This document shows positions 1,197 to 51,787 of a DNA stretch of 64,000 nucleotides, in pieces. The position numbers and the translations under genes were made by a program. Numbering within the stretch: the first letter of the stretch is position 1; each line of letters begins with the position of its first letter. Origin of the DNA: Eledone cirrhosa (lineage: Eukaryota); NCBI GenBank assembly GCA_964016885.1, contig OZ024758.1, forward strand, positions 32,054,001 to 32,118,000, read 5' to 3'. The notes beneath the pieces were generated by a model. That model was not told the origin of the DNA. It ran no database searches and saw only the letters and a list, made by a program, of their open reading frames with translations.

Positions 1197-3700
1197 CAGA
1201 GTAATTCGTGGTAGAGGGATCGGTCAGTAGGAATGTGTCTGAACGTGTGTGGGGGATATTTTAACATGTTAAAAGATACTTTTCAGCTCTTGTCTTATAC
1301 GGAGAAGTGTGTGTGTACGTGTGTGTGTGTGTATATGTCTCTTTTTATGTTAGTGTACGCGTGTGTATGTGGGTGTGTATATATGTGTGTGTGTGTGTGT
1401 GTATGTGTGTATATATGTGTGTGTGTGGGTGGGTGGACCAGTATTTTTGTGATACTGGTAAAAATGGTGTACATTATTCGATATTTTCAGTAAAAACGAT
1501 TCTCTCAATAGAACATCAAAAACCTTAATAATAAAAGGTGTGAAATGATATATAGTATTGTCATAACACGAAGGTGTGTGTGAGTGTCCAGATTGTACGT
1601 ACTGCAAGGGGAATCCATTAGGCCCTGCCGTATTGGAATACTTGTGTACAAATATGTATGTGCCCATCAGTGTGCAATGCATGTGTGTGTGTCGGCATGT
1701 TTATATCTATAGACATCAAAAGGTATGCAAATTGGTGTATATTTGTGTTGCACCATAGAACATGTGTGTTTACGTATGTCATTGTGTTTATATGTGGGTA
1801 GAGATGTATGTAGGATGTATGCTGATGTAGGTATGTATGTTGACGTGAGTATGTTGTGGGTTCGTCTTAGGGAGAAGTGTTTAGACGGAGTCCGTATTTG
1901 TTAATAAAGTGAGATTCCTTGCTGATGCGCTGGGTGTAGGTGGCATTATCTTTAAATTTGTAGAGGGGAAAGATTCTGAAGTTGGGATGATTTTGGGCGG
2001 CACAGGTATCAATGTGTTCACTCAGTGGTATTTTCCTGTATTCCCGTATTTTAATTTGGGATCTATGGACAGTCATGCGTTGGCGGAGGCTGTTTTTGGT
2101 CTGGCCTATGTATTGTTCTCGACAACCTGAGCAAGTTAATACATATATTAGATTTTCTGATGCGCATGTGAAATTGTGTTTTACTATAAAACGTTGTCCT
2201 TCTTTGAAATAGAATTCCGAACCCTCTATTAGGTTGATGCATATGTCACAGTTGGGTCTATCGCATTTTTTTTACTGTGGGTTTCGTTGTTGTGGTTGGC
2301 AGTACTTTGGCATGTGTTAGGATGTTTTTCGTTGACTTAGGTTGTCTTTTGCTCTTTATGATATCGTGTGTTCTTAGGATTTGGTTCATTCTGTGATGTT
2401 CTGGAGGATGGTGTCAAAGGCCTCATTGTTGAGGGGGTTGTGTGTGGAGATGTATGGAAGAGCTTTTAGTTTCGGTTGATTTACTTTAGGGTGTCTAAGG
2501 TCTTGGGTACTGAGTTTTAGGGCACGTTGTCAATTAGTGATGCAGGGTAGTGCCTGCCTATGAGTGTGTCCTTTAGTTCTTGTAGCCGTAAGTAACAGGT
2601 GTTTTTATTGGAGACTATAGTACAGATTCTCTTGGCTAAGTTGTAGGGAATATTAATTTTAACGTATCTAGGGTGGCAAGAGTTGAAAGGAAGATATTGC
2701 TTGGAGTCTGTGGGCTTGTAGTATATGTCTGTTTTTATTTTTTTGTTATGAATCTTAATGAGGATGTCGAGGAAGGGGAGTTGTTGATGGCTGTATTCCA
2801 TCGTAAAGTTAATATTCGTGTTGAGGCCATTTATAAGGTTGTGAAATTCTTTAAGTTTCTCGATGTTTTCGTGCCAAAGGATGAAGCAGTCATCGAGATA
2901 TCGCTTCCAGTTCCTTTCTATGTGTAAGTGGAGAGTGTTTCCAAATTTGTTTAGTACTTTAGCGTAGAGGGTGATTTCCAGGTATCCCATGACTAGGTTG
3001 GCATAAGTAGGGGCTGTTTTCGTTCCCATAGCGGTCCCAGATTTCTGCCTGTAGGATTTGTTATTGAAAACGAAGTAATTGTCCTCCAAGATAAATTTGA
3101 GTCCCTCTATCACGAATTCTTTTTTGATGCGTTGTGGGAGTTCATTGTGGTAATTATCCAGCCAGAATTGGATAGCTTCTATTCCTAGGTTGTGGGGGAT
3201 GTTGGAGTATAGGTTGACTACATCGAACGTCACTAGTAGGGTTTGTTCAGAAAGGGGAATATTAGGGAGGTGATTGAGCATATCTAGGTCGTCCCTTATA
3301 TAGCTTTTGATGTGTTTGAGAAAAGGCTTGAGAAGGGTATCAATGAAGTTGCTAAGGCGGTGGGTTTCGCAAGCGGAGCCTGCTATTATAGGTCTTAATT
3401 TGAGATCTTTGGGTGAGGGGACATTGATGACTATGTCTGTGGCTTCCTTGCATGCCTTACTTATTAATTCGCTTTTATGTACTTTAGGGATACCGCAGAA
3501 AAGGCTGGATTTACTTGTGAAGTCTGTGATGAAGCTGAATTCCTTGTTAGTGAGTCTTTCTTTGTATTGGTTAATCAGAGTTTTTAGGTTTCTCATAATT
3601 TTCTGTTGATTGTAGTGTTCAGCCTTTTCGTAGTATGTTTCGTTTTCCAAAGTGGAGAGCGCTAAGTTGATATAGAATTCTGTCTCCATTAGGACTACTG
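600..3700 (-). mobile_element. Penelope-like retroelement (RT + GIY-YIG), 5'-truncated and frameshifted, with long microsatellite-containing 3' region
   Basis: ORF 2517-3689 has PLE RT motifs (LRPIIAG, TFDVVNLYSNI, GTAMGTKTAPTYANL, WKRYLDDCF, LPFLD, DIYYKPTD). GIY-YIG remnant at ~1867-2210 (YIGQTKNSLRQRMTVHR). The 3' boundary is approximate; a decayed hammerhead-like motif lies at ~697-735. Confidence 0.85.
2517..3689 (-). pseudogene. Penelope-type reverse transcriptase (partial)
   Basis: RT motifs as above. Truncated at its 5' side near a (TA)n tract and frameshifted before the endonuclease. Confidence 0.85.
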
Positions 3701-3731
3701 TACTCCCTTTATCAGCCTCTTTAATTGTAAT

Positions 3732-4088: not shown

Positions 4089-4728
4089 ACGGTACTGAAA
4101 TATGCAGATGACATCAAGCTGTACCTTGAAATCAAAAGGACTGATCCTGAAATCTACAACTCTTTCCTACAATCAGACCTGGACACAATGCAGCAATGGA
4201 TCACAGACTGGCAACTGAAGCTGGACAAGTGTACCACCATACATTTTGGGAGGAAAAATCCAGCGTCCACATACTCCCTCTACAACACTGATATCAAGAA
4301 GTCCTCTTGTGAACGTGACCTGGGCATTACTGTCAGCAGAAATTTGCGTTGGACAAAGCATGTCTCTAAGATTGTCAAGAAGGCCCAGAGTGTCTTGGCA
4401 TCACTCAGCAAGACCTTTGTTAGCCGCTCTCCAGCCATCTATTTAAAACTGTATACAGCTATGGTACGACCACACTTGGAATTCGCATCATCAGTCTGGA
4501 ACCCCTATCTTGCTCAGAACATTGACCTCATGGAAACTGTTCAGAGACGTGCAACCAAGCGCATACCCTCCATCAGACACCTACCATACTCTGAACGCCT
4601 TGCTTCCCTGGGCATGGATTCATTGAAGCTCCGACGTCTGGCAATGGACTTGGTAAATACCCACAAAGTTATTAACCATCTCGCCAATTGCAACCCTGAG
4701 CACCTTTTTGATCTCCATGTGTCTAACA
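4089..4728 (+). mobile_element. CR1-group LINE, 5'-truncated ORF2 (RT C-terminal part), left flank of the viral insert
   Basis: YADDIKLY...ERDLGITV...LYTAMVRPHLEFASSVWNPY...ETVQRRATK. Nearly identical to the copy at 42898-43536. Confidence 0.9.
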
Positions 4729-4808
4729 GTGATTATCCCATTCCCACCCCTTTCGTCTATAATACAATGTAATAATAATCCGATGGTGTGGGAATGGGAT
4801 AATCACTG
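4727..4808. repeat. stem-loop at the left edge of the viral insert (candidate terminal hairpin/origin)
   Basis: cagtgattatcccattcccac (4727-4747) is the exact reverse complement of gtgggaatgggataatcactg (4788-4808). The loop is 40 nt. Confidence 0.85.
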
Positions 4809-4900
4809 CTGACCATTGATCACACTGGTATAAGAGGTGCCTGGTATAGTATTTTTAACCGATGACAGCGATGTGGTTTGATAGTTAACTAAAATCTCCC

Positions 4901-4934
4901 TATATAATAAGAAAAATATCGTAAAACCATCAGT
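4901..4934 (+). promoter_or_regulatory. putative VP core promoter: TATA box + TCAGT initiator immediately before the VP ATG
   Basis: TATATAA at 4901-4907 and TCAGT at 4930-4934 (~30 nt spacing), with ATG at 4935. A direct repeat ctggtata occurs at 4825 and 4841. Confidence 0.65.
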
Positions 4935-6779
4935 ATGCCGAGTACTCGCAAACGGAAGAAGCCTCCCGAAGAGAAACCAGGACCATCAAAGGAATATCAC
5001 GCACCAGGATACGATTTCCTTGGCCCAGGTACTGATATCAAAAAGAAAAAATATTGGGTACCACGTAATAAGCTAGACCAAGCAGCCAAAGAACACGATA
5101 TCGCCTATGAAAATAAAGACATCAGAACCTGGTACGCAGATAAAAAATTCATCGGAGAGGCTGTTAAATCCGGACCTACAGGTATACTCGCAGCAGCAGC
5201 AATCGGAGCTAAGCATTATCTGGGACTCGATTCATATTTTCGAGGTTGTCCTACCGATACTGTTGATTCTTGCGGGGCTGCTACTATGGCTGGGATGGAG
5301 ACGGACGCGGAGACTGAGAGAGCTGATGGAGGAGGTGGATGGACGGGTACACAACATGGTTCATCCGCCCAAATACCTACCCCGACTGGACCCTATCAAA
5401 GAGAGGTTACATTTACAAGAAAATTCCTTAATGTAGTTAAATCTCAGAATATGAACACTGCAACGGGAACATTTACGAGTATCAAACAGGCCGGAGATAA
5501 CCAACCCAAAATCAAAGATCTCATGACAAGAGGAGTCTGTAAATCGCAGGACTTCCTGGTTCCCTATTGGTTAACTACATGGGTTAAACCAATCGAATGG
5601 GAGGCGCAATTGAGTATGGCTACATCGTATCGTGTTAAAGATATGGGATTTAAGATATCAAACATAACATGCTCAGAGTGGATAGTAGCGAGAGGAGAAG
5701 ACCAATTCATCAACAATCCATTACCATATTTCCAAATATATATAGACAGAGGAAAGTATATTGGATACAACAATCTAAGAGGGATATCACATATACCAAA
5801 CGATGGCTTCCAACTCATACATCCCACTACTGTTAACGACCTACTATTACCAACATACGAATACTTTTACATGTGTAATAAACAAGTATTACTGGATATG
5901 GGACAAACATTTGAAAACGATGCGACAACTATAGAAATGCGAAAGCTACACGACTGGAGAGGATTATATGATGTCAAAGAGATTCGGCAAGGTGATACTT
6001 TCGTACATCGATGGCGCAACCATTCACAATTAACACATCCTCTCACCAATACAGAATGGAACGGAAATGTAATAATGCACGGTAATATACTAAACAGCGG
6101 AAAGTTTGCTAACAATCATCATCAAGCTGTAGGTAGTATATTAACTGGAGATGGAGGTCTAAATGTTACATCAGCGCCATATGGAGGAACATCATTCGAA
6201 AAAGGAGCCGGATGGTTAGATTATCAAAACCCCAGGACAATAACCCGATTAGGATGGATGGAGGATAACGCAATGACTGAATATAACGAAATGGGAATGA
6301 ACTACCAATGTATCAGAGAATCGACCACGGTACCCGGCGATTATGAGGGTGCCTCGGGAATATACACCGTGGCAAACAGAACACTAATAAATAACGTTTT
6401 GTACACGTCAGAAGACCCGCCAGAGATGATACTGATTAACGTACCAGTGAAAGTTAACGGTAATAATACACTGCAGACATTAATGTTTCAAATGGAAATT
6501 GAATACTTTATGACGATTGAGGCAGATTACGATCAACTGAACCACCCACAAATAATACAAACAACCAATGTAAATGCGTCACGTATGCAAAACACAGACA
6601 AGGAATATAGATACGATCTTCATAGTGTAACCGATCCTGGCAGACACTTTCATGGACACAGAGTCAAACACGCACAACACGGCAGAACTTTAGACGTGGG
6701 CGATAAAGATAGTCCTTATATTTATAAGGACTATCTTTATCGCCCACGTCTAAAGTTCTGCCGTGTTGTGCGTGTTTGA
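4935..6779 (+). CDS. VP1: parvovirus-like capsid protein VP1 with N-terminal phospholipase A2 domain
   Basis: Uninterrupted 614-aa ORF. Basic NLS-like TRKRKK, PLA2 Ca-loop PGYDFLGPGT, catalytic DQAAKEHDIAY, Gly-rich DGGGGWTG after a second Met in strong context (actATGg, 5286), and jelly-roll-like YRVKDMGFKISNI. Confidence 0.88.
   Translation: MPSTRKRKKPPEEKPGPSKEYHAPGYDFLGPGTDIKKKKYWVPRNKLDQAAKEHDIAYENKDIRTWYADKKFIGEAVKSGPTGILAAAAIGAKHYLGLDSYFRGCPTDTVDSCGAATMAGMETDAETERADGGGGWTGTQHGSSAQIPTPTGPYQREVTFTRKFLNVVKSQNMNTATGTFTSIKQAGDNQPKIKDLMTRGVCKSQDFLVPYWLTTWVKPIEWEAQLSMATSYRVKDMGFKISNITCSEWIVARGEDQFINNPLPYFQIYIDRGKYIGYNNLRGISHIPNDGFQLIHPTTVNDLLLPTYEYFYMCNKQVLLDMGQTFENDATTIEMRKLHDWRGLYDVKEIRQGDTFVHRWRNHSQLTHPLTNTEWNGNVIMHGNILNSGKFANNHHQAVGSILTGDGGLNVTSAPYGGTSFEKGAGWLDYQNPRTITRLGWMEDNAMTEYNEMGMNYQCIRESTTVPGDYEGASGIYTVANRTLINNVLYTSEDPPEMILINVPVKVNGNNTLQTLMFQMEIEYFMTIEADYDQLNHPQIIQTTNVNASRMQNTDKEYRYDLHSVTDPGRHFHGHRVKHAQHGRTLDVGDKDSPYIYKDYLYRPRLKFCRVVRV
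5107..5436 (+). CDS. putative overlapping (+1 frame) small membrane protein
   Basis: 109-aa ATG-initiated ORF inside VP with a hydrophobic segment IFEVVLPILLILAGLLLWLGW followed by RRTRR. Expression is unproven. Confidence 0.4.
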   Translation: MKIKTSEPGTQIKNSSERLLNPDLQVYSQQQQSELSIIWDSIHIFEVVLPILLILAGLLLWLGWRRTRRLRELMEEVDGRVHNMVHPPKYLPRLDPIKERLHLQENSLM

Positions 6780-6788
6780 CTCTGTGTC
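6655..6788. repeat. perfect 66-bp-arm palindrome (2-nt loop) between VP and NS1; candidate parvoviral telomere
   Basis: 6655-6720 gacacagagtc...agtccttata is the exact reverse complement of 6723-6788 tataaggact...gactctgtgtc. Confidence 0.92.
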
Positions 6789-6840
6789 AGGAGCGGCCAC
6801 TTCGTTAACAAGTAAGATTGTAACTTACAACTGAACGGAC

Positions 6841-8290
6841 ATGGACCAAGATCAGAAGCAGAAGTTCAACGACGAATTCTTTAATGACGCCACCAACATC
6901 AAGGGAACCACGGCCTACACTTGGGTCTACAGATGGCAAGAACCTAATGAGTTTACGTGGGCGGAGATAAATCTATTCAAGAGACCGTCTGAGACTATAA
7001 ATTATAAACCATTCAAAGAAGAACATTCGCTACTTTTCAGACTGTTGTGTACATTCACATCTATTGTTGTCTACCACCCTAAAGGACCTTCACGTATAAA
7101 ACATTGCGACGATGTGGATCACTTTCACATCATATCTTGGCATACGTCTCACCCAACTAATCAACACAGCTTTCTTAAGCTAAAAAGACTGTTACAAATG
7201 AACGATCCTAAACACCAATATGAGATGAAGGCGGCCAAAATTGAATCACCAGCTGGCTTTGCCGAATACCTACAAAAATATGACGTCATAGCTTGCAATG
7301 ATATCAAAACAACAGGGCAGAGAAAGATGTTAGCAACCATAACTAAGCAAGAGATGATGTCAGTACCGGTAGAGGATACAACCACTAACATTAAGACAAA
7401 CGATACAGTACGTGGCAACAAATTTAATTTCGTGAAAGACCTAATGAGCAAGTGCAACTCAACAGATCTTGGCGACATTATAAATTTCGTTTGTACTATC
7501 GGTAAAGACAAGTACGGACATGCATGGGACTCTGTCTATAGAAACACTCCTAATCTTTCATCACTACTACAACCAGCAGCAACCCAACTACAAATAGAAA
7601 ACCGGATCACGCCCATATGGGAGCAGATACAGGAGAAAAGACTAATGCTTGGCAGCGATGGTAATAGGTATTGGACTGTAAACACAAGTCTTGCGATATA
7701 TGAACAATGGTGTGCATTTCACCAGATTAATCATGTAAGATTTGCGAAGGACCTGTTTGACGTGTGTCACAAAATCCTACCGAAAAAAAAACAGTCTACA
7801 TATCACCGGAATACCAAACAGCGGCAAAAGTTATCTCCTAAGGAGTATTAGAAATGGACTTATGAACTGTGGCAGAATGCGATGCCAGGCCAGTGATAAT
7901 TTTACATTTGGGACCTGTATCGATAAAACACTAATATTTACCGATGAAATGTGGTTCACGAACATAAACATAGAAGAGGCGAAATGTATACTAGAAGGTA
8001 CTGAGACGTATGTCAATATTAAACATCAGCAAGAACGCATTCTGCACAGAACACCATGCATAAGTACTGGAAATTCGAACCCATGGGATAGAGTGATGCA
8101 AGATGAAAAAGCGTTAAGAGCAAGAATGTTCATCTACACTACCAACTCGGAGATGATAAAACTGAAAGAATGGGGACAAAAGGAGTTAAATCCTATGATG
8201 TGGTTGACTATATGGAGAGATTACATAAAGGAATACACTGCATCCTTTAAAACCCTCATGCTTCCCGAAATACGCCAAAACTACACCTGA
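6841..8290 (+). CDS. NS1: parvovirus-like NS1/Rep (HUH endonuclease + SF3 helicase); one +1 frameshift in an A9 run; last 17 aa LINE-derived
   Basis: HUH motif DHFHIISW and tyrosine motif EYLQK. After removing one A at 7783-7791 it reads PKKNSLHITGIPNSGKS (Walker A), LIFTDE (Walker B), AKCILEG...VNIKH (B'), PCISTGN (C) and ALRAR (Arg finger). Repaired length is 482 aa. Confidence 0.88.
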
Positions 8291-8432
8291 TGTACCCCTT
8301 CCATACACATGCACACATGTGTGTATCATGACTCGTGCACTGTTCATTTTCCTGATGTTTGTGCATTGCCCTATGTACTGTACATGCACTTTTTGATGAG
8401 TTGTGGTGCACCTGGGCACTGTACACAATATT

Positions 8433-8488
<56 letters not shown>

Positions 8489-8609
8489 ATATCATGACTC
8501 ATACACTGTTCATTTTCCTGACATTTGTACATTGTTCTGTGTACTATACATGCACCTTTGATGAGTTGTAGTGCACCTGAGCACTGAACACAATAATTTC
8601 ATTATTATT

Positions 8610-8610
<1 letters not shown>
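8235..8610 (+). mobile_element. CR1-group LINE 3' end (ORF2 C-terminus, 3' UTR, (ATT)n tail, partial 3' UTR duplication), right flank of the viral insert
   Basis: acactgcatcctttaaaaccctcatgcttcccgaaatacgccaaaactacacctga... matches 43660-43859 and the minus-strand copy at 9430-9840. Confidence 0.9.
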
Positions 8611-8644
<34 letters not shown>

Positions 8645-8685
8645 CGAAACATAAGTCAATTGCATGAACTCATAATCCTTTATTT

Positions 8686-8741
8686 ACTGCTATATATATT
8701 TCGATGATAGCCATTGAATGGCTATGACCTCATCAGGCAGT
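8686..8741 (-). ncRNA. minimal type I hammerhead ribozyme motif (PLE pLTR-type)
   Basis: Minus strand reads actgc CTGATGA ggtc atagccat tca atggctat catc GAAA tatata TA gcagt. Confidence 0.6.
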
Positions 8742-8799
8742 TAGTCAGTTCTTAGATATGCCAGCTCTGTGTTTATAGTGTTGATGGTACCAGAGCCTT

Positions 8800-8902
<103 letters not shown>

Positions 8903-9429
8903 GTAGTTAGGGAAGCAGAAAATTGCTTTTTGTGATCCAGTTCGTGGTTAAGAAAGCCAGTTTCATGGATGGTTTCAACGTATGGTTAGGGGTACCTCCA
9001 CAAGTTTGTAAGAATTCCGTTCATTCTTGGAGTATAAAGTATAAAAGAGAAAACACAGGTAAGCATTAAGAGAAGGATTTTATCCAGGTATTTACGACCG
9101 TTTCAGTGGTAAGTGCAACCTTATATTGGTATACTGCAAAAAAAATCCTTCTCTTAATGCTTACCTATGTTTTCTCTTTTATACTATATATATATGTATG
9201 TGCGTGCGTATGTACGTGTACATGTGCGTATGTGTGTGTATGTGTATATTTGTATATATAAGTAATTTTTTATATATATGTGTGTATGTGGTTGAATGTA
9301 TTTTTTCTCATGTATATGTGTGCGTGAATGTATTTATATTTTTTGATATATGTATATACACCAACATTTGTGTATATGTGTGTGTATGCATGTGAGTATG
9401 TATATGTGTGCATTGTGTGTGTATATATA

Positions 9430-9840
9430 ATAATAATAATAATAATAATGAAATTATTGTGTACAGTGCTCAGGTGCACTACAACTCATCAAAGGTGCAT
9501 GTATAGTACATAGAATAATGTACAAATGTCAGGAAAATGAACAGTGTATGAGTCATGATATAATAATGATAACAATAATGAAATATTGTGTACAGTGCCC
9601 AGGTGCACCACAACTCATCAAAAAAGTGCATGTACAGTACATAGGGCAATGCACAAACATCAGTAAAATGAACAGTGCACGAGTCATGATACACACATGT
9701 GTGCATGTGTATGGAAGGGATACATCAGGTGTAGTTTTGGCGTATTTCGGGAAGCATGAGTGTCTTAAAGGATGCAGTGTCTCGGCAGCTAACAATTGAC
9801 TCAGGCAGTTTGTTCCATGCTTCAGCAACTCTGAGCGTGA
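9430..9840 (-). mobile_element. CR1-group LINE 3' fragment
   Basis: Encodes ...AWNKLPESIVSCRDTASFKTLMLPEIRQNYT* plus the same 3' UTR and (ATT)n tail as 8235-8610, in inverted orientation. Confidence 0.85.
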
Positions 9841-10372
9841 AAAAAAAAAAATATATATATATTTATTTTATTTTGTTTTGTGCATTTGCTTACCACGTGT
9901 GTTTGTTTATTTATTTTCATTTGTGTTTTTTTCCTCTTTCGGATCACTGTCAACTGGCTAATTTTTTAATTTTTGATATTTGACTTTATTTTTTACTTTT
10001 ATTTATTTATTATTTTGATTTCATGTATATGGATTTATCTTTGCCAGTTGATGTGACTGCTTATTTTAGTATATGCGCATGGTCGAGTGTGTATATGTTT
10101 GTTTATTTATTTTTACTTATTTTTATAATTATGAGTGTGTGTGTATATATATATATGTGTGTGTATATATATATGTGTATATATATATACATGTGTTTGT
10201 GTATTTATGTGTATGTGTATGTATATTTATATATATATATATATGTGCATGTGTGTGTGTGTGTTTATATACTTATATATTTATAATCTTTCTTTCTTCT
10301 TCCCTCAGCCTCACTTCCATATTTCTTATATTTTTGTTTTCAAATCCACATTCAATAAAAACACCAGGATTT

Positions 10373-30508: not shown

Positions 30509-30624
30509 ATAGGAACCAGTAAGACCCCGACAGCTGAGCTCAAGCCGTTTCGACGGCTAATTCTGGCCAGAATTAGCCGTCGAAACGGCTTGAGCTCAGC
30601 TGTCGGGGTCTTACTGGTTCCTAT
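30509..30624. repeat. perfect loopless palindrome, 58-bp arms
   Basis: ataggaaccagtaagaccccgacagctgagctcaagccgtttcgacggctaattctgg|ccagaattagccgtcgaaacgg...ggttcctat. The left arm is related to 57470-57528. Confidence 0.9.
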
Positions 30625-40444: not shown

Positions 40445-43400
40445 GAGAAGACTGGGAAATCTGCTACCCATGAAGTAATTGCCACTGGGGTACCAGAGGA
40501 CAAGGCTGATCTTCAGGCATTTTCTGCCAGCTCAGCCAAAGACCTAGGCTGGTTCTCCCAAAGGGTGCTCTCTGCCTTGGTCGACCTGGTCCAAAACCCA
40601 GACTCATCAGGCTGTCTTTTTCGGAACACGCCGAGGCAATTTCATATCATCTGGCCTCTGTTAAAGCTGGGCGTGAAAATCGGATTACCTTCCGAACACG
40701 CCCAGGCCTACCACCCCATGTACGTCCAAAGCTACGTGCTGCAGCTTCCGTGAATCGGAACTCAGCACAACATGAAAGTTTTAGTCTGCGTAATGATGGT
40801 CAGATCTGGAGGTTTGTTAAGGCTGGTGAAACGTGGAAGAGAGATACTAGCTGGTCTGAGTGTGCTCTACCCACAATAACTGGCAATGAAAAAACTGCAA
40901 CAACTCTGGGAAACTAAACCAGAACAACCTGCCATCCTCTACACACCATCATAAACTGCAAGCAGGGTACAAATTGTTGTCCTTAAATGCTCGCAGTTTA
41001 TGCAACATGATACATCTGTTTAACTCCTACGTCAGAAGCATCGACCCTGACTTCATCACAGTCACGGAAACATGGGCACATTCCTTACTGTGTGATGGGG
41101 TATTCAGCATTACTGGGTACTACCTTTTCCGCAAGGACCGCATTAATCGCCGTGGTGGTGTGATGGTCTACGTTCTTTCAAACTTTTCGGTAATTCCTTG
41201 CGTTGATTTGAACGAATCACAAGAAGAATTTTTTTTTTGTGACATACGTATGACCATGTCAACACTTCTGCTTGGTGTTGTTTATCGCCCCCCAAACTAC
41301 CATCAAGACACACAGCTTTGCGATATCCTCAGAGCTGCTGCCAGGAAAACAGCCACTTATGTGTTTATTGCAGGTGACTTCAATCATCCTGAGATCGAAT
41401 GGGAAACCTTTCGTTGGCCACAAAGTGCAAACGATTTCCTTGAGCTAGTGCTGGACTCAAACTGGTCACAAGTAGTCACCTCTCCAACAAGAGGTGACAA
41501 CACTTTGCACCTGATCTCCACCACTACTCCTGAAGTGGTTATCAGTTGTACTACTGAGGAACCTCTAGGTGACTCTGATCATGCTATGATCATTGCCAAT
41601 CTGGCTCTTGCGGGCAGCAACAAAAACCAGAACCATCTCCAATCTGCTTGCTTTATATTGGAAGAAAGCAGATTGGAACTTGTACTGCACTGAGATACAG
41701 CGCCCAAACTGGCATGAGTTCTATAACTCTGGAGATGTGAACACTATATTCTAGAGCATCCTGGACTCAATATGGATAGCGTGTGCAGCATCAGTGCCAC
41801 GTAAGCAGAAAAAAACCACCCCAAAAGTGCAAGTTGGGAAACTTCAGCGGTCCGACTTGCCAGGAAAGAACGTCGGAACGCTGAACGGGAATATAAACTG
41901 CATAGATCAGATGCCAACAGAAAAAAGCGGAATAAATCTTCCAACCATCTCAAGCAAGTGACAAAAAAGGCAGTGCTTGAAATTGAACAGTGCATAGCAA
42001 CCAATCCTGACAGTAAGGTGTTCTGGAAATATGTTCATTCAAAGCAGAGACCTCACTCTCCAGTTGGTCCTCTTCGCAATCCCCACACTGACGATCCCAA
42101 AGAATGCACAGAACGCATTGCTGAGTGCTATGCAAGCATTTTTACTGTTGAAGACCAGAGTGTACCATCTCCACCATCTCTAACATCAAATTCCATAACA
42201 ACTATGGAATTTAGACCTGCAATGCTGCGACGTCCTTAAGAATAAGCGCAACTATGCCTCCCCTGGTCTTGATGGTGTTACATACCTGCTTCTCAAACGT
42301 GGCGGGTACTTCTTTTGCACCAGCTTTCTTTCTTCTTTCAATACTGTCTCAACAATGGTGCTACTCCGGAGCAGTGGAAAACTGCCAGTGTCATTCCCCT
42401 GTTCAAAAAGGGCGACCGCACGTGACCTGTCAACTATCCACCAGTTAGTCTTACTAGTTGTATTGCCAAACTGATGGAATCCTGTGTCAGAGAAACACTT
42501 TGGAACTTCTGGAACTCTCACAGTCTTATCCGGCCCTCACAATTTGGATGTATCCCTAACTCCAGCTGCTGTGATCAGCTTATCGAGTTCCTTGAAGACA
42601 TCACCCGGATCACTGACAGCGGCTCATGGGTGGATGTTGGTTACCTTGATTTCGCTAAGGCTTTTAATTCTGTGCCACACAAAAGACTTATGGCGAAACT
42701 CTCTGCAATGGGTGTGAGGGATGATCTTTTTAACTGGTTGAAATCCTTCATTCTCAGCTGAAAAGAGGTAGTCACGGTTCTAGGACAGTATTCTTCACCA
42801 TATGAGATGTCATCTGGTGTACCACAGGGATCTGTTCTTGGTCCCCTCTTGTTTGTGGCATATATTAATGACATAGATGCCAACTTAAAGAATGCCACAG
42901 TACTGAAATATGCAGATAACATCAAGCTGTACCTTGAAATCAAAAGGACTGATCCTGAATTCTACAACTCTTTCCTACAATAAGACCTGGACACAATGCA
43001 GCAATGGATCACAGACTGGCAACTGAAGCTGACTGTGGACAAGTGTACCACCATGCATTTTGGGAGGAAAAATCCAGCGTCCACATACTCCCTCCACATC
43101 ACTGATATCAAGAAGTCCTCTTGTGAACGTGACCTGGGCATTACTGTCAGCAGCAATTTGCGTTGGACAAAGCATGTCTCTAAGATTGTCAAGAAGGCCC
43201 AGAGTGTCTTGGCATCACTCAGCAAGAACTTAGTTAGCCACTCTCCAGCCATCTGTTTAAAGCTGTATACAGCTATGGTACGACCACACTTAGAATTTGC
43301 ATCATCAGTCTGGAACCCCTATCTTGCTCAGAACATTGACCCCCTGGAAACTGTTCAGGGACGTGCAACCATACCCTCCATCAGACACCTACCATACACT

Positions 43401-43859
43401 GAACGCCTTGCTTCCCTGGGCATGGATTCATTGAAGCTCCGACGTCTGGCAATGGACTTGGTAAACACCCACAAAGTTATTAACCATGTCGCCAACAACA
43501 ACCCTGAGCACCTTTTTGATCTCCATATATCTAACACACGTGGACATGCCTACAAAATCAGAAAACAGCACAGCTCCCATGACTTTCGGAAACATTTTTT
43601 CAAGCTTAGAGTTGCTGAAGCATGGAACAAACTGCCTGCGTCAGTTGTTAGCTGCTGAGACACTGAATCCTTTAAAACCCTCATGCTTCCCGAAATTCGC
43701 CAAAACTACACCCTTCCATACACATGCAGACATGTGTATATCATGACTCATGCACTGTTCATTTTCCTGACGTTTGTACATTACCCTATGTACCATCCAT
43801 ACAGTTTTTGATGAGTTGTAGTGCACCTGAGCACTGTACACAATATTTTCATTATTATA
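40445..43859 (+). mobile_element. CR1-group LINE (ORF1 end, APE + RT ORF2, 3' UTR, ATT tail) nested in the RTE with an 11-bp target-site duplication
   Basis: LNARSL, VTETW, GVVYRPP, AGDFNHP, GDSDH, YLDFAKAFNSVPH, GVPQGSVLGPLLF, YADNIKL. TSD tgcatcagtct (40434-40444) / tgcaccagtct (43860-43870). Confidence 0.9.
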
Positions 43860-50746: not shown

Positions 50747-51030
50747 TTTGCACAATTTCAAACCGATTCAACTCAAAGTCTGTAAGAATGTTGTAAATGG
50801 TCTAACTTAGGTCAATGACTATTTATTAATTTCAAACTCGCCCACAATTACGGAAATAATTGATAAAACTAAATACATGACGCTTTACCCCTCTAATACA
50901 ATCTGATAACCTCTCTCTACTCCCCTTAAATTTCGATAAAACTACATACATGCTGCAACTTTCTCTTATATACGCTTAAACTTACAAACTTCCTTTAGGA
51001 ACGCCGAAGAAAGAAGAGAGAAAGAAATGA

Positions 51031-51095
<65 letters not shown>

Positions 51096-51444
51096 TTTGT
51101 TTTTGAGTGTGGAATGGTCAAACATTTATTTACTTCAATGACAACAATTATTCAAAAGCAACAGATAAATTTATTCAACAACAAAAAAAAAATACCGGTA
51201 AATTTTTTTTAAAACATCTCTCAACGAACGTGGAAGAAAGAAGTATCAGTTTATTTACTATACACAATAATATCCTCTATGAGTAAATAAACTGATACTT
51301 CTTTCTTCCACGTTCGTTGAGAGATGTTTTAAAAAAGATTTACCGCTATTTTTTTTTGTTGTTGAATAAATTTATCTGTTGCTTTTGAATAATTGTTGTC
51401 ATTGAAGTAAATAAATGTTTGACCATTCCACACTCAAAAACAAA

Positions 51445-51495
<51 letters not shown>

Positions 51496-51787
51496 TCTCT
51501 CCTTCATTTCTTTCTCTCTTCTTTCTTCGGCGTTCCTAAAGGAAGTTTGTAAGTTTAAGCGTATATAAGAGAAAGTTGCAGCATGTATGTAGTTTTATCG
51601 ATTTTTAAGGGGAGTAGAGAGAGGTTATCAGATTGTATTAGAGGGGTAAAGCGTCATGTATTTAGTTTTATCTATTATTTCCGTAATTGTGGGTGAGTTT
51701 GAAATAAATAAATAGTCGTTGACCTAAGTTAGACCATTTACAACATTCTTACAGACTTTGAGTTGAATCGGTTTGAAATTGTGCAAA
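50747..51787. repeat. ~510-bp-arm inverted repeat with 22-nt spacer
   Basis: 50747-51258 mirrors 51281-51787 with few mismatches, including (GA)n/(TC)n tracts. An outer short IR spans 50721-50748 / 51818-51845. Confidence 0.9.

What the first reader, a model, noticed from the sequence alone, without database searches (positions are those of the whole stretch)
4089..8610. Virus sits inside a CR1-group LINE, replacing ~123 bp: a LINE-virus-LINE chimera
Seen: against the uninterrupted family member at 42898-43859, the LINE breaks after ...gtctaaca (4728, equivalent to 43536) and resumes at acactgcatcc (8235, equivalent to 43660). That removes 123 bp and leaves no target duplication. The last two LINE bases (CA) are also the first two bases of the hairpin stem. 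The LINE 3' UTR and (ATT)n tail are retained downstream. Inference: capture occurred by template switching during target-primed reverse transcription or by microhomology-mediated repair. Sequence upstream of the viral TATA box is included, which argues for a DNA rather than mRNA template. With an intact LINE 3' end, the viral cassette could in principle be mobilised in trans.
Basis: partly seen in the sequence, partly recalled or inferred. Interest (0 to 1): 0.8.

Follow-up and report, generated by a model that had tools for sequence, protein, structure and literature searches.

The report
Capsid-first parvovirus fossil inside octopus LINE
A 3.5-kb piece of a parvovirus-like genome sits inside one copy of a young jumping gene in what is likely an octopus genome, likely pasted in once by DNA repair and not copied since; it belongs to a virus family in this genome whose capsid gene comes before its replication gene, the reverse of the usual parvovirus order.

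Summary
A CR1-type LINE stops at 4728 and resumes at 8235, 123 bp of it are missing, and 3,506 bp of parvovirus-like DNA lie between: hairpin, capsid gene with PLA2 domain, NS1. Both LINE halves trace to one young subfamily. Each junction occurs once in the 3-Gb genome, so there is no sign of mobilisation. The genome holds dozens of related viral pieces; none of 40 fetched stretches joins them to this LINE, and their left ends also fall in or at the hairpin. Best reading: viral DNA patched a break in a resident LINE through short homologies (0.68); double template jump during LINE insertion is the rival (0.17). The larger result lies outside the finding: two deep clades of these elements carry capsid before NS on one strand (13 of 40 stretches, reverse order 0 of 40), bracketed by two unlike hairpins. 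Cephalopod NS fragments were reported in 2016; my searches found no description of this gene order.

The parts
4089..4728 (+). 5' half of a 5'-truncated CR1-type LINE (end of RT domain and C-terminal part of ORF2); 4 private substitutions and a 6-bp deletion
   Evidence: protein 71-76% to Octopus RT-like proteins, CR1-like bird and turtle hits further down
4341..4389 (+). patch of three rare variants shared with the LINE copy at 43153-43203: likely gene-conversion tract from that neighbour (limits 4286-4413)
   Evidence: the two-variant 25-mer occurs at 2 places in the genome, both in this window, against 1,382 family matches
4727..4808 (+). remnant of the viral left terminal hairpin; first two bases shared with the LINE; its 5' arm is shorter than in relative L017 (138-nt hairpin)
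4901..4907 (+). TATA-like box upstream of the capsid gene (function inferred)
   Evidence: sequence
4935..6779 (+). capsid gene (VP), open for 614 codons; PLA2 domain at residues 19-60; C-terminus altered by the fold-back
   Evidence: PF08398 E 6e-10; fold matches to parvoviral capsids, E 4e-9 in PDB, 2e-15 in BFVD, model pLDDT 47.5; atlas 0.97
6655..6788 (.). perfect fold-back (66-nt arms, 0 mismatches), private to this copy, not a viral terminus; 63 nt longer than three relatives here; centred on a TATA-like motif that relatives show upstream of NS
6841..8234 (+). NS1 gene (HUH-like motif, SF3 helicase); frame broken in or beside the A-run at 7783-7791; 3' end cut off by the LINE; viral right end absent
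   Evidence: PF01057 E 2.5e-16; break present in the read contig
8235..8290 (+). last codons and stop of LINE ORF2, in frame with the NS 3' piece; two older-type variants at 8251 and 8254 shared with the copy at 43660
8291..8612 (+). LINE 3' UTR with two tandem tail units, expanded (ATT)n between them (8434-8488) and short terminal ATT tail
9422..9845 (-). separate, younger 3' fragment of the same LINE family (not a local duplicate of the chimera)
   Evidence: 39 other places at 99%
42300..43858 (+). older-type copy of the LINE used as reference; likely donor of the conversion patch

Best explanation
This is a single endogenous parvovirus-like fragment that likely entered a CR1 LINE copy already sitting in an octopod chromosome, when a double-strand break in the LINE was likely repaired with viral DNA as the patch. 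Steps: (shown) one young 5'-truncated LINE copy is split, 123 bp are gone, the viral piece starts within its left hairpin and stops within NS1; (inferred) the break ends were trimmed, the left end paired through CA plus imperfect further complementarity, the right end through about 1-4 bases, and host synthesis filled in from a viral DNA strand or replicative form; (shown) the copy later or meanwhile gained a frame break in NS and a 66-nt fold-back, and has not been copied elsewhere; (inferred) it cannot replicate as a virus, having lost the NS end and right terminus, and at most yields a transcript from the viral promoter that ends in the LINE tail. The donor virus likely had a linear genome of about 4.4 kb with two unlike hairpins and capsid upstream of NS on one strand.
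For: One LINE copy: the best matches to each half include the same three elements and the gap equals the family spacing. Single event: junctions unique. LINE not needed: 38 of 40 fetched stretches hold viral pieces, only 1 of 40 has any match to this CR1, 104 nt on the other strand about 1.5 kb away; 5 of 5 relatives examined at the left end also start in or at the hairpin, with other flanks. DNA forms integrate: L117 and L118 hold 99.9-100% identical inverted viral arms of 1.5-2 kb, as rolling-hairpin intermediates would (recalled). This LINE copy has exchanged sequence at DNA level with its neighbour. Left-junction complementarity ranks in the top 2.1% of 1,687 LINE positions (post hoc). NHEJ-type entry of parvoviral DNA is the standard model (PMC3205384, passages). 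LINEs are 12.9% of the O. vulgaris genome (PMC13282606, passages), so some hits in LINEs are expected among dozens of insertions.
Against: No empty-site allele was seen, so the order LINE first, virus second is not shown. Dating does not separate them: the LINE has 4 private substitutions in 839 nt (family median 4.5, 58 copies) and a viral insert of equal age would still lack stop codons with probability 0.2-0.5. This particular family is a small target (1,382 matches at one site), the virus is in the LINE's sense, and it ends near the 5' end of its plus strand, all as a jumping RT would give. Right-hand microhomology is inferred from relatives only (Tyr codon at that place in 5 of 8). Tails of other LINE families were not searched beside the relatives. 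The left junction has no read support here.
Confidence: 0.68

Rival explanations
1. During target-primed reverse transcription the CR1 RT copied 375 nt of its own RNA, jumped onto a plus-strand viral DNA or long RNA inside NS, copied to the hairpin, and jumped back to the LINE RNA 123 nt further on.
For: Same orientation; LINE and virus both young; viral piece ends near a template 5' end; double jumps are documented for LINEs (PMC2104539, abstract and section 8).
Against: The documented tripartite cases join three different RNAs and are rare beside two-part chimeras (1 against 33 in that paper); no two-part chimera with this CR1 in 40 stretches; relatives end in the hairpin without a LINE; no target duplication can be read because both flanks are simple repeats.
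Confidence: 0.17
2. The viral NS1 nicked the LINE and joined the viral hairpin end to it, in the manner of AAV Rep-directed integration.
For: NS has HUH-like and SF3 motifs; the left junction is in the hairpin; Rep-directed integration is known for AAV2 (PMC3205384, passages).
Against: Relatives sit in unrelated flanks, so no target site; right junction is mid-gene; left cut points differ among copies.
Confidence: 0.08
3. The virus bridges two different LINE copies after a larger deletion, and the near-register is chance.
For: Two variants just right of the junction (8251, 8254) differ from nearly all of 58 related copies (frequencies 0.03 and 0.00).
Against: Both halves share their nearest relatives; the rest of the 3' half is young-type; register within 123 bp by chance is unlikely.
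Confidence: 0.04
4. Assembly chimera of a free virus with host LINE reads.
For: Left junction not bridged in the listed contigs.
Against: A short-read contig carries the right junction with 0 differences; flat depth of about 9 along most of the insert; frame break and fold-back are marks of a resident copy; dozens of decayed relatives on many chromosomes.
Confidence: 0.03

Closest known systems
Endogenous parvoviral elements (Parvoviridae EVEs), including the cephalopod parvovirus-related sequences of Francois et al. 2016 (PMC5013282)
   Same: NS1 SF3 helicase and PLA2-bearing capsid, both genes together, entry from DNA. That paper's supplement lists NS fragments from Octopus bimaculoides, Sepia officinalis and Euprymna scolopes and a VP fragment from O. 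vulgaris, one with an adjacent transposable element. By eye the Sepia fragment resembles this clade and O. bimaculoides KOF81493 the second clade (not tested by tool).
   Different: Those were short fragments; here hairpins, both genes and their order are visible, and VP precedes NS on one strand. The usual NS-left, VP-right or ambisense layout is recalled.
Tripartite LINE chimeras made by double template jumps (Magnaporthe WEIRD-SINE-LINE; mouse B2-U6-L1; PMC2104539)
   Same: A foreign sequence fused upstream of a LINE 3' end.
   Different: Three different RNAs with flanking direct repeats there; here LINE-virus-same LINE almost in register, a DNA virus including its hairpin, no readable duplication.
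L1-mediated endogenous bornavirus elements (EBLN; PMC3205384)
   Same: Non-retroviral viral sequence associated with LINE machinery.
   Different: EBLNs are single mRNAs with poly(A) and target duplications; this insert spans a terminus and two genes and has neither.
Teratorn (piggyBac-herpesvirus fusion; PMC10175614, search listing only)
   Same: Transposon and virus sequence in one unit.
   Different: Teratorn is described as a mobile composite element; this chimera is single-copy with a truncated LINE and broken NS.
IHHNV EVE clusters of shrimp (PMC12287923, passages)
   Same: Parvoviral EVEs gathered in clusters proposed to yield piRNA-like RNAs; this genome has same-strand arrays of relatives.
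   Different: The window's copy is solitary; no small-RNA data were available here.

Membership tests
Parvoviridae-derived EVE | NS1 with SF3 helicase | tested here: met
   PF01057 E 2.5e-16 above cut-off; Walker A and B visible in alignment
Parvoviridae-derived EVE | N-terminal HUH endonuclease domain in NS1 | tested here: inconclusive
   an HFH motif shared by 4 rows of the alignment; no Pfam hit on the N-terminal piece; motif meaning recalled
Parvoviridae-derived EVE | parvoviral jelly-roll capsid, with PLA2 in most genera | tested here: met
   PF08398; all listed fold matches are Parvoviridae capsids though TM about 0.3 and pLDDT 47.5; atlas 0.97
Parvoviridae-derived EVE | terminal hairpins on a linear 4-6 kb genome | tested here: met
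   left hairpin in window, L017, L118; a different hairpin about 0.6 kb after NS in L011, unit about 4.35 kb
Parvoviridae (described genera) | NS left and VP right, or ambisense (recalled) | tested here: not met
   VP end 4-427 nt before NS start on one strand in 13 of 40 stretches and the window; reverse 0 of 40
Parvoviridae (described genera) | placement in a named genus by NS1 tree | tested here: inconclusive
   tree had only unnamed outgroups; window clade 100/100, long branch
Parvoviridae (described genera) | ssDNA packaged in T=1 particles | not testable with these tools
   no free virus contig found
CR1-group LINE | RT-like ORF2 with CR1-type C-terminus and short repeat tail | tested here: met
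   clade label rests on hits to bird and turtle proteins and a recalled C-terminal motif, no tree built
LINE template-switch chimera | target-site duplication around the whole chimera | tested here: inconclusive
   both flanks are simple repeats
LINE template-switch chimera | components are copies of RNAs | tested here: not met
   insert includes the hairpin upstream of the TATA-like box
Non-autonomous element mobilised by CR1 | several copies with the same junctions and different flanks | tested here: not met
   1 match each

The most novel reading that the evidence does not exclude
An active CR1 reverse transcriptase copied a single-stranded DNA virus by jumping off and back onto its own RNA, creating a virus-carrying retro-element whose own promoter now reads into a live CR1 tail, and the virus is a member of an undescribed capsid-first parvovirus lineage that keeps invading octopod germ lines. 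The capsid-first lineage alone, without the RT capture, I put at about 0.5 for being both genuine and undescribed.
Probability: 0.1. Interest if true: 0.8.

Novelty: new variant of a known kind. Interest (0 to 1): 0.52.

Why it matters
The chimera itself is one well-preserved snapshot of how a DNA virus gets into an animal germ line, with both junctions readable against 98-99% identical LINE copies; one empty allele would settle repair versus retrotransposition. More broadly, the genome records repeated and recent invasion by two deep parvovirus-like clades with capsid placed first and NS behind a likely internal promoter, which would widen the known genome plans of the family and give cephalopods their first parvoviral genome layouts. 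Same-strand arrays of these elements make a piRNA-type antiviral memory in cephalopods directly testable with small-RNA data.

Tried and rejected
Inverted LINE fragment at 9422-9845 as a pre-insertion duplicate: rejected, it is one of many 99% copies. Fold-back at 6655-6788 as a viral terminus or concatemer joint: rejected, absent from 3 of 3 relatives aligned. Shared right boundary among relatives: an artefact of the query end; relatives run on 40-80 residues. Three RAD runs from other individuals had no reads on the virus, but read ends point to EcoRI plus NlaIII, whose fragments in the virus are 35 and 645 bp against roughly 135-250 bp seen: no evidence on presence or absence. No RNA holder listed. 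Dating LINE against virus: inconclusive. Target duplication via the 3' flank: that flank is a short repeat in (TA)n, uninformative. Free relatives with gene order: viral contigs gave only PLA2-domain matches or nothing, metagenome contigs nothing, phages nothing. Unnamed VP relatives at 39% lie on 3.8-4.5 kb contigs whose layout I could not see. Earlier scan findings: none. Paper searches for cephalopod parvoviruses or reversed order found only PMC5013282; the library lacks most subscription journals.
Full report
Setting. The window lies at G000:C19:32,054,001-32,118,000 of a 3.0-Gb assembly. The LINE protein's best named matches are Octopus proteins at 71-76%, so the host is likely an octopod.

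Observation. Window 4089-4728 and 8235-8442 align to 42897-43536 and 43660-43858; 123 bp are missing. The same spacing holds in 17 of 19 and 23 of 25 other family copies. The missing part is 41 codons of ORF2, and the LINE resumes with its last 17 codons in frame with NS. The family has two tandem tail units, so the element ends near 8612. CA at 4727-4728 starts a 23-bp stem.

The insert. An open 614-codon gene has the parvoviral PLA2 domain (E 6e-10); a low-confidence model (pLDDT 47.5) matches parvoviral capsids only among the listed hits, as does the language-model search. Downstream on the same strand is NS1 (E 2.5e-16), broken in frame at or beside the A-run 7783-7791 and cut at 8234; relatives continue 40-80 residues. 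The perfect palindrome at 6655-6788 is private: three relatives lack 63 nt here.

One LINE, one event. Searches with each half return some of the same elements. Over 58 copies spanning both halves (from 87 loci), this copy has 4 private substitutions in 839 nt, plus a 6-bp deletion; the median is 4.5. Each junction 24-mer matches once at up to 2 mismatches. A short-read contig carries the NS break and runs 30 letters past the right junction without a difference; the left junction is not bridged in the 8 listed pieces, and the run may be the assembly's own sample.

Family context. DNA and protein searches gave 42, 56 and 49 matches (matches, not copies). I fetched 40 stretches of up to 10 kb around a selection of them; 38 hold viral pieces and 1 has a 104-nt match to this CR1, unlinked. 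Left ends of 5 of 5 relatives examined fall in or at the hairpin, next to microsatellite, minisatellite, other viral or unassigned DNA. So hairpin-ended entry is the family habit and needs no CR1. Tails of other LINE families were not searched.

Mechanism. Repair into a resident LINE explains the near-register, the 123-bp loss, the missing duplication and the short homologies: CA plus further complementarity in the top 2.1% of LINE positions on the left (post hoc), and about 1-4 bases on the right inferred from relatives. A three-variant patch is shared with the copy 39 kb away; its two-variant 25-mer is found nowhere else among 1,382 matches, showing DNA-level exchange at this copy, though not its timing. 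NHEJ-type entry is the standard view for parvoviral EVEs (PMC3205384, passages). Against it: no empty allele seen, dating cannot order the events, and a young family is a small target. Double template jumps exist (PMC2104539, abstract and section 8) but join three different RNAs and were 1 against 33 two-part cases there. I give repair 0.68 and TPRT capture 0.17.

Mobilisation. The viral right end, which in L011 holds a poly(A)-like signal and a second hairpin, is replaced by the tail of a young LINE family, so the idea is mechanistically sensible; but there is one copy and no RNA evidence either way.

Gene order. VP end lies 4-427 nt before NS start on one strand in 13 of 40 stretches and the window, the reverse in 0 of 40 (L122 is weak, some stretches are neighbours or inverted duplicates). 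NS pieces do lie upstream of VP pieces in arrays such as L020, L021, L028 and L030; I read these as joints between truncated neighbours. In L011 a left hairpin remnant, VP, NS and a different right hairpin span about 4.35 kb with 29 nt and no hairpin between the genes; L118 also has its hairpin upstream of VP. A helicase tree splits the elements into two clades, each 100/100, both with this order (36 rows, fragments over 105 residues only, unnamed outgroups).

Known work. Francois et al. 2016 (PMC5013282; passages and supplement search) list cephalopod NS and VP fragments and call mollusc sequences new lineages; I saw no gene order there. PMC13282606 and PMC9068888 have no occurrence of 'virus' or 'viral' in the main text (supplements not seen). 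PMC12287923 was seen as passages. Searches found no paper on capsid-first parvoviruses or on a parvovirus inside a LINE; the library is incomplete. The usual parvoviral gene order is recalled.

Verdict. The anatomy is real; as a mobile LINE-virus chimera it is unsupported and as a single insertion it is a new member of a known kind. The capsid-first family it belongs to makes the whole a new variant of a known kind. Interest 0.52.

Noticed in passing
G000:C12:8.97-9.09 Mb (L011-L015); C2:345.36-345.39 Mb (L119, L030, L120); C25:7.43-7.46 Mb (L019, L020); C841 (L027-L029): Arrays of parvoviral pieces from both clades, all on one strand within each array, resembling single-strand piRNA clusters (resemblance recalled).
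   Followed up: partly
L117:1458-4586; L118:2164-4229 with 5460-7525; L114:4579-6002: Inverted duplications of viral DNA at 99.5-100% identity: very recent insertions that look like replicative-form dimers, or assembly fold-backs.
   Followed up: partly
window 4341-4389 and 43153-43203: Two LINE copies 39 kb apart share rare variants; the tested 25-mer occurs nowhere else in the genome: likely ectopic gene conversion.
   Followed up: yes
window 6655-6788, 9033-9190, 30509-30624, 50747-51787; many in L015, L017, L018, L022, L023: Near-perfect fold-back palindromes of 100-1,000 nt are frequent in this genome; cause unknown.
   Followed up: no
window 2520-3722 (minus strand): Open 400-codon RT fragment of another retroelement (RVT_1 E 4.5e-7), Penelope-like by recalled motif.
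   Followed up: no
window 8640-8800: Short repeat with at least 20 copies at 90-99% that sits in (TA)n tracts.
   Followed up: partly
L039:1786-3286: The LINE's 130-nt tail unit is amplified into a tandem array of about ten or more copies.
   Followed up: no
P0003 and P0179 (unnamed public proteins): A VP relative and an NS relative both list a longest contig of 3,807 bases, possibly one free or endogenous virus contig; layout not seen.
   Followed up: no
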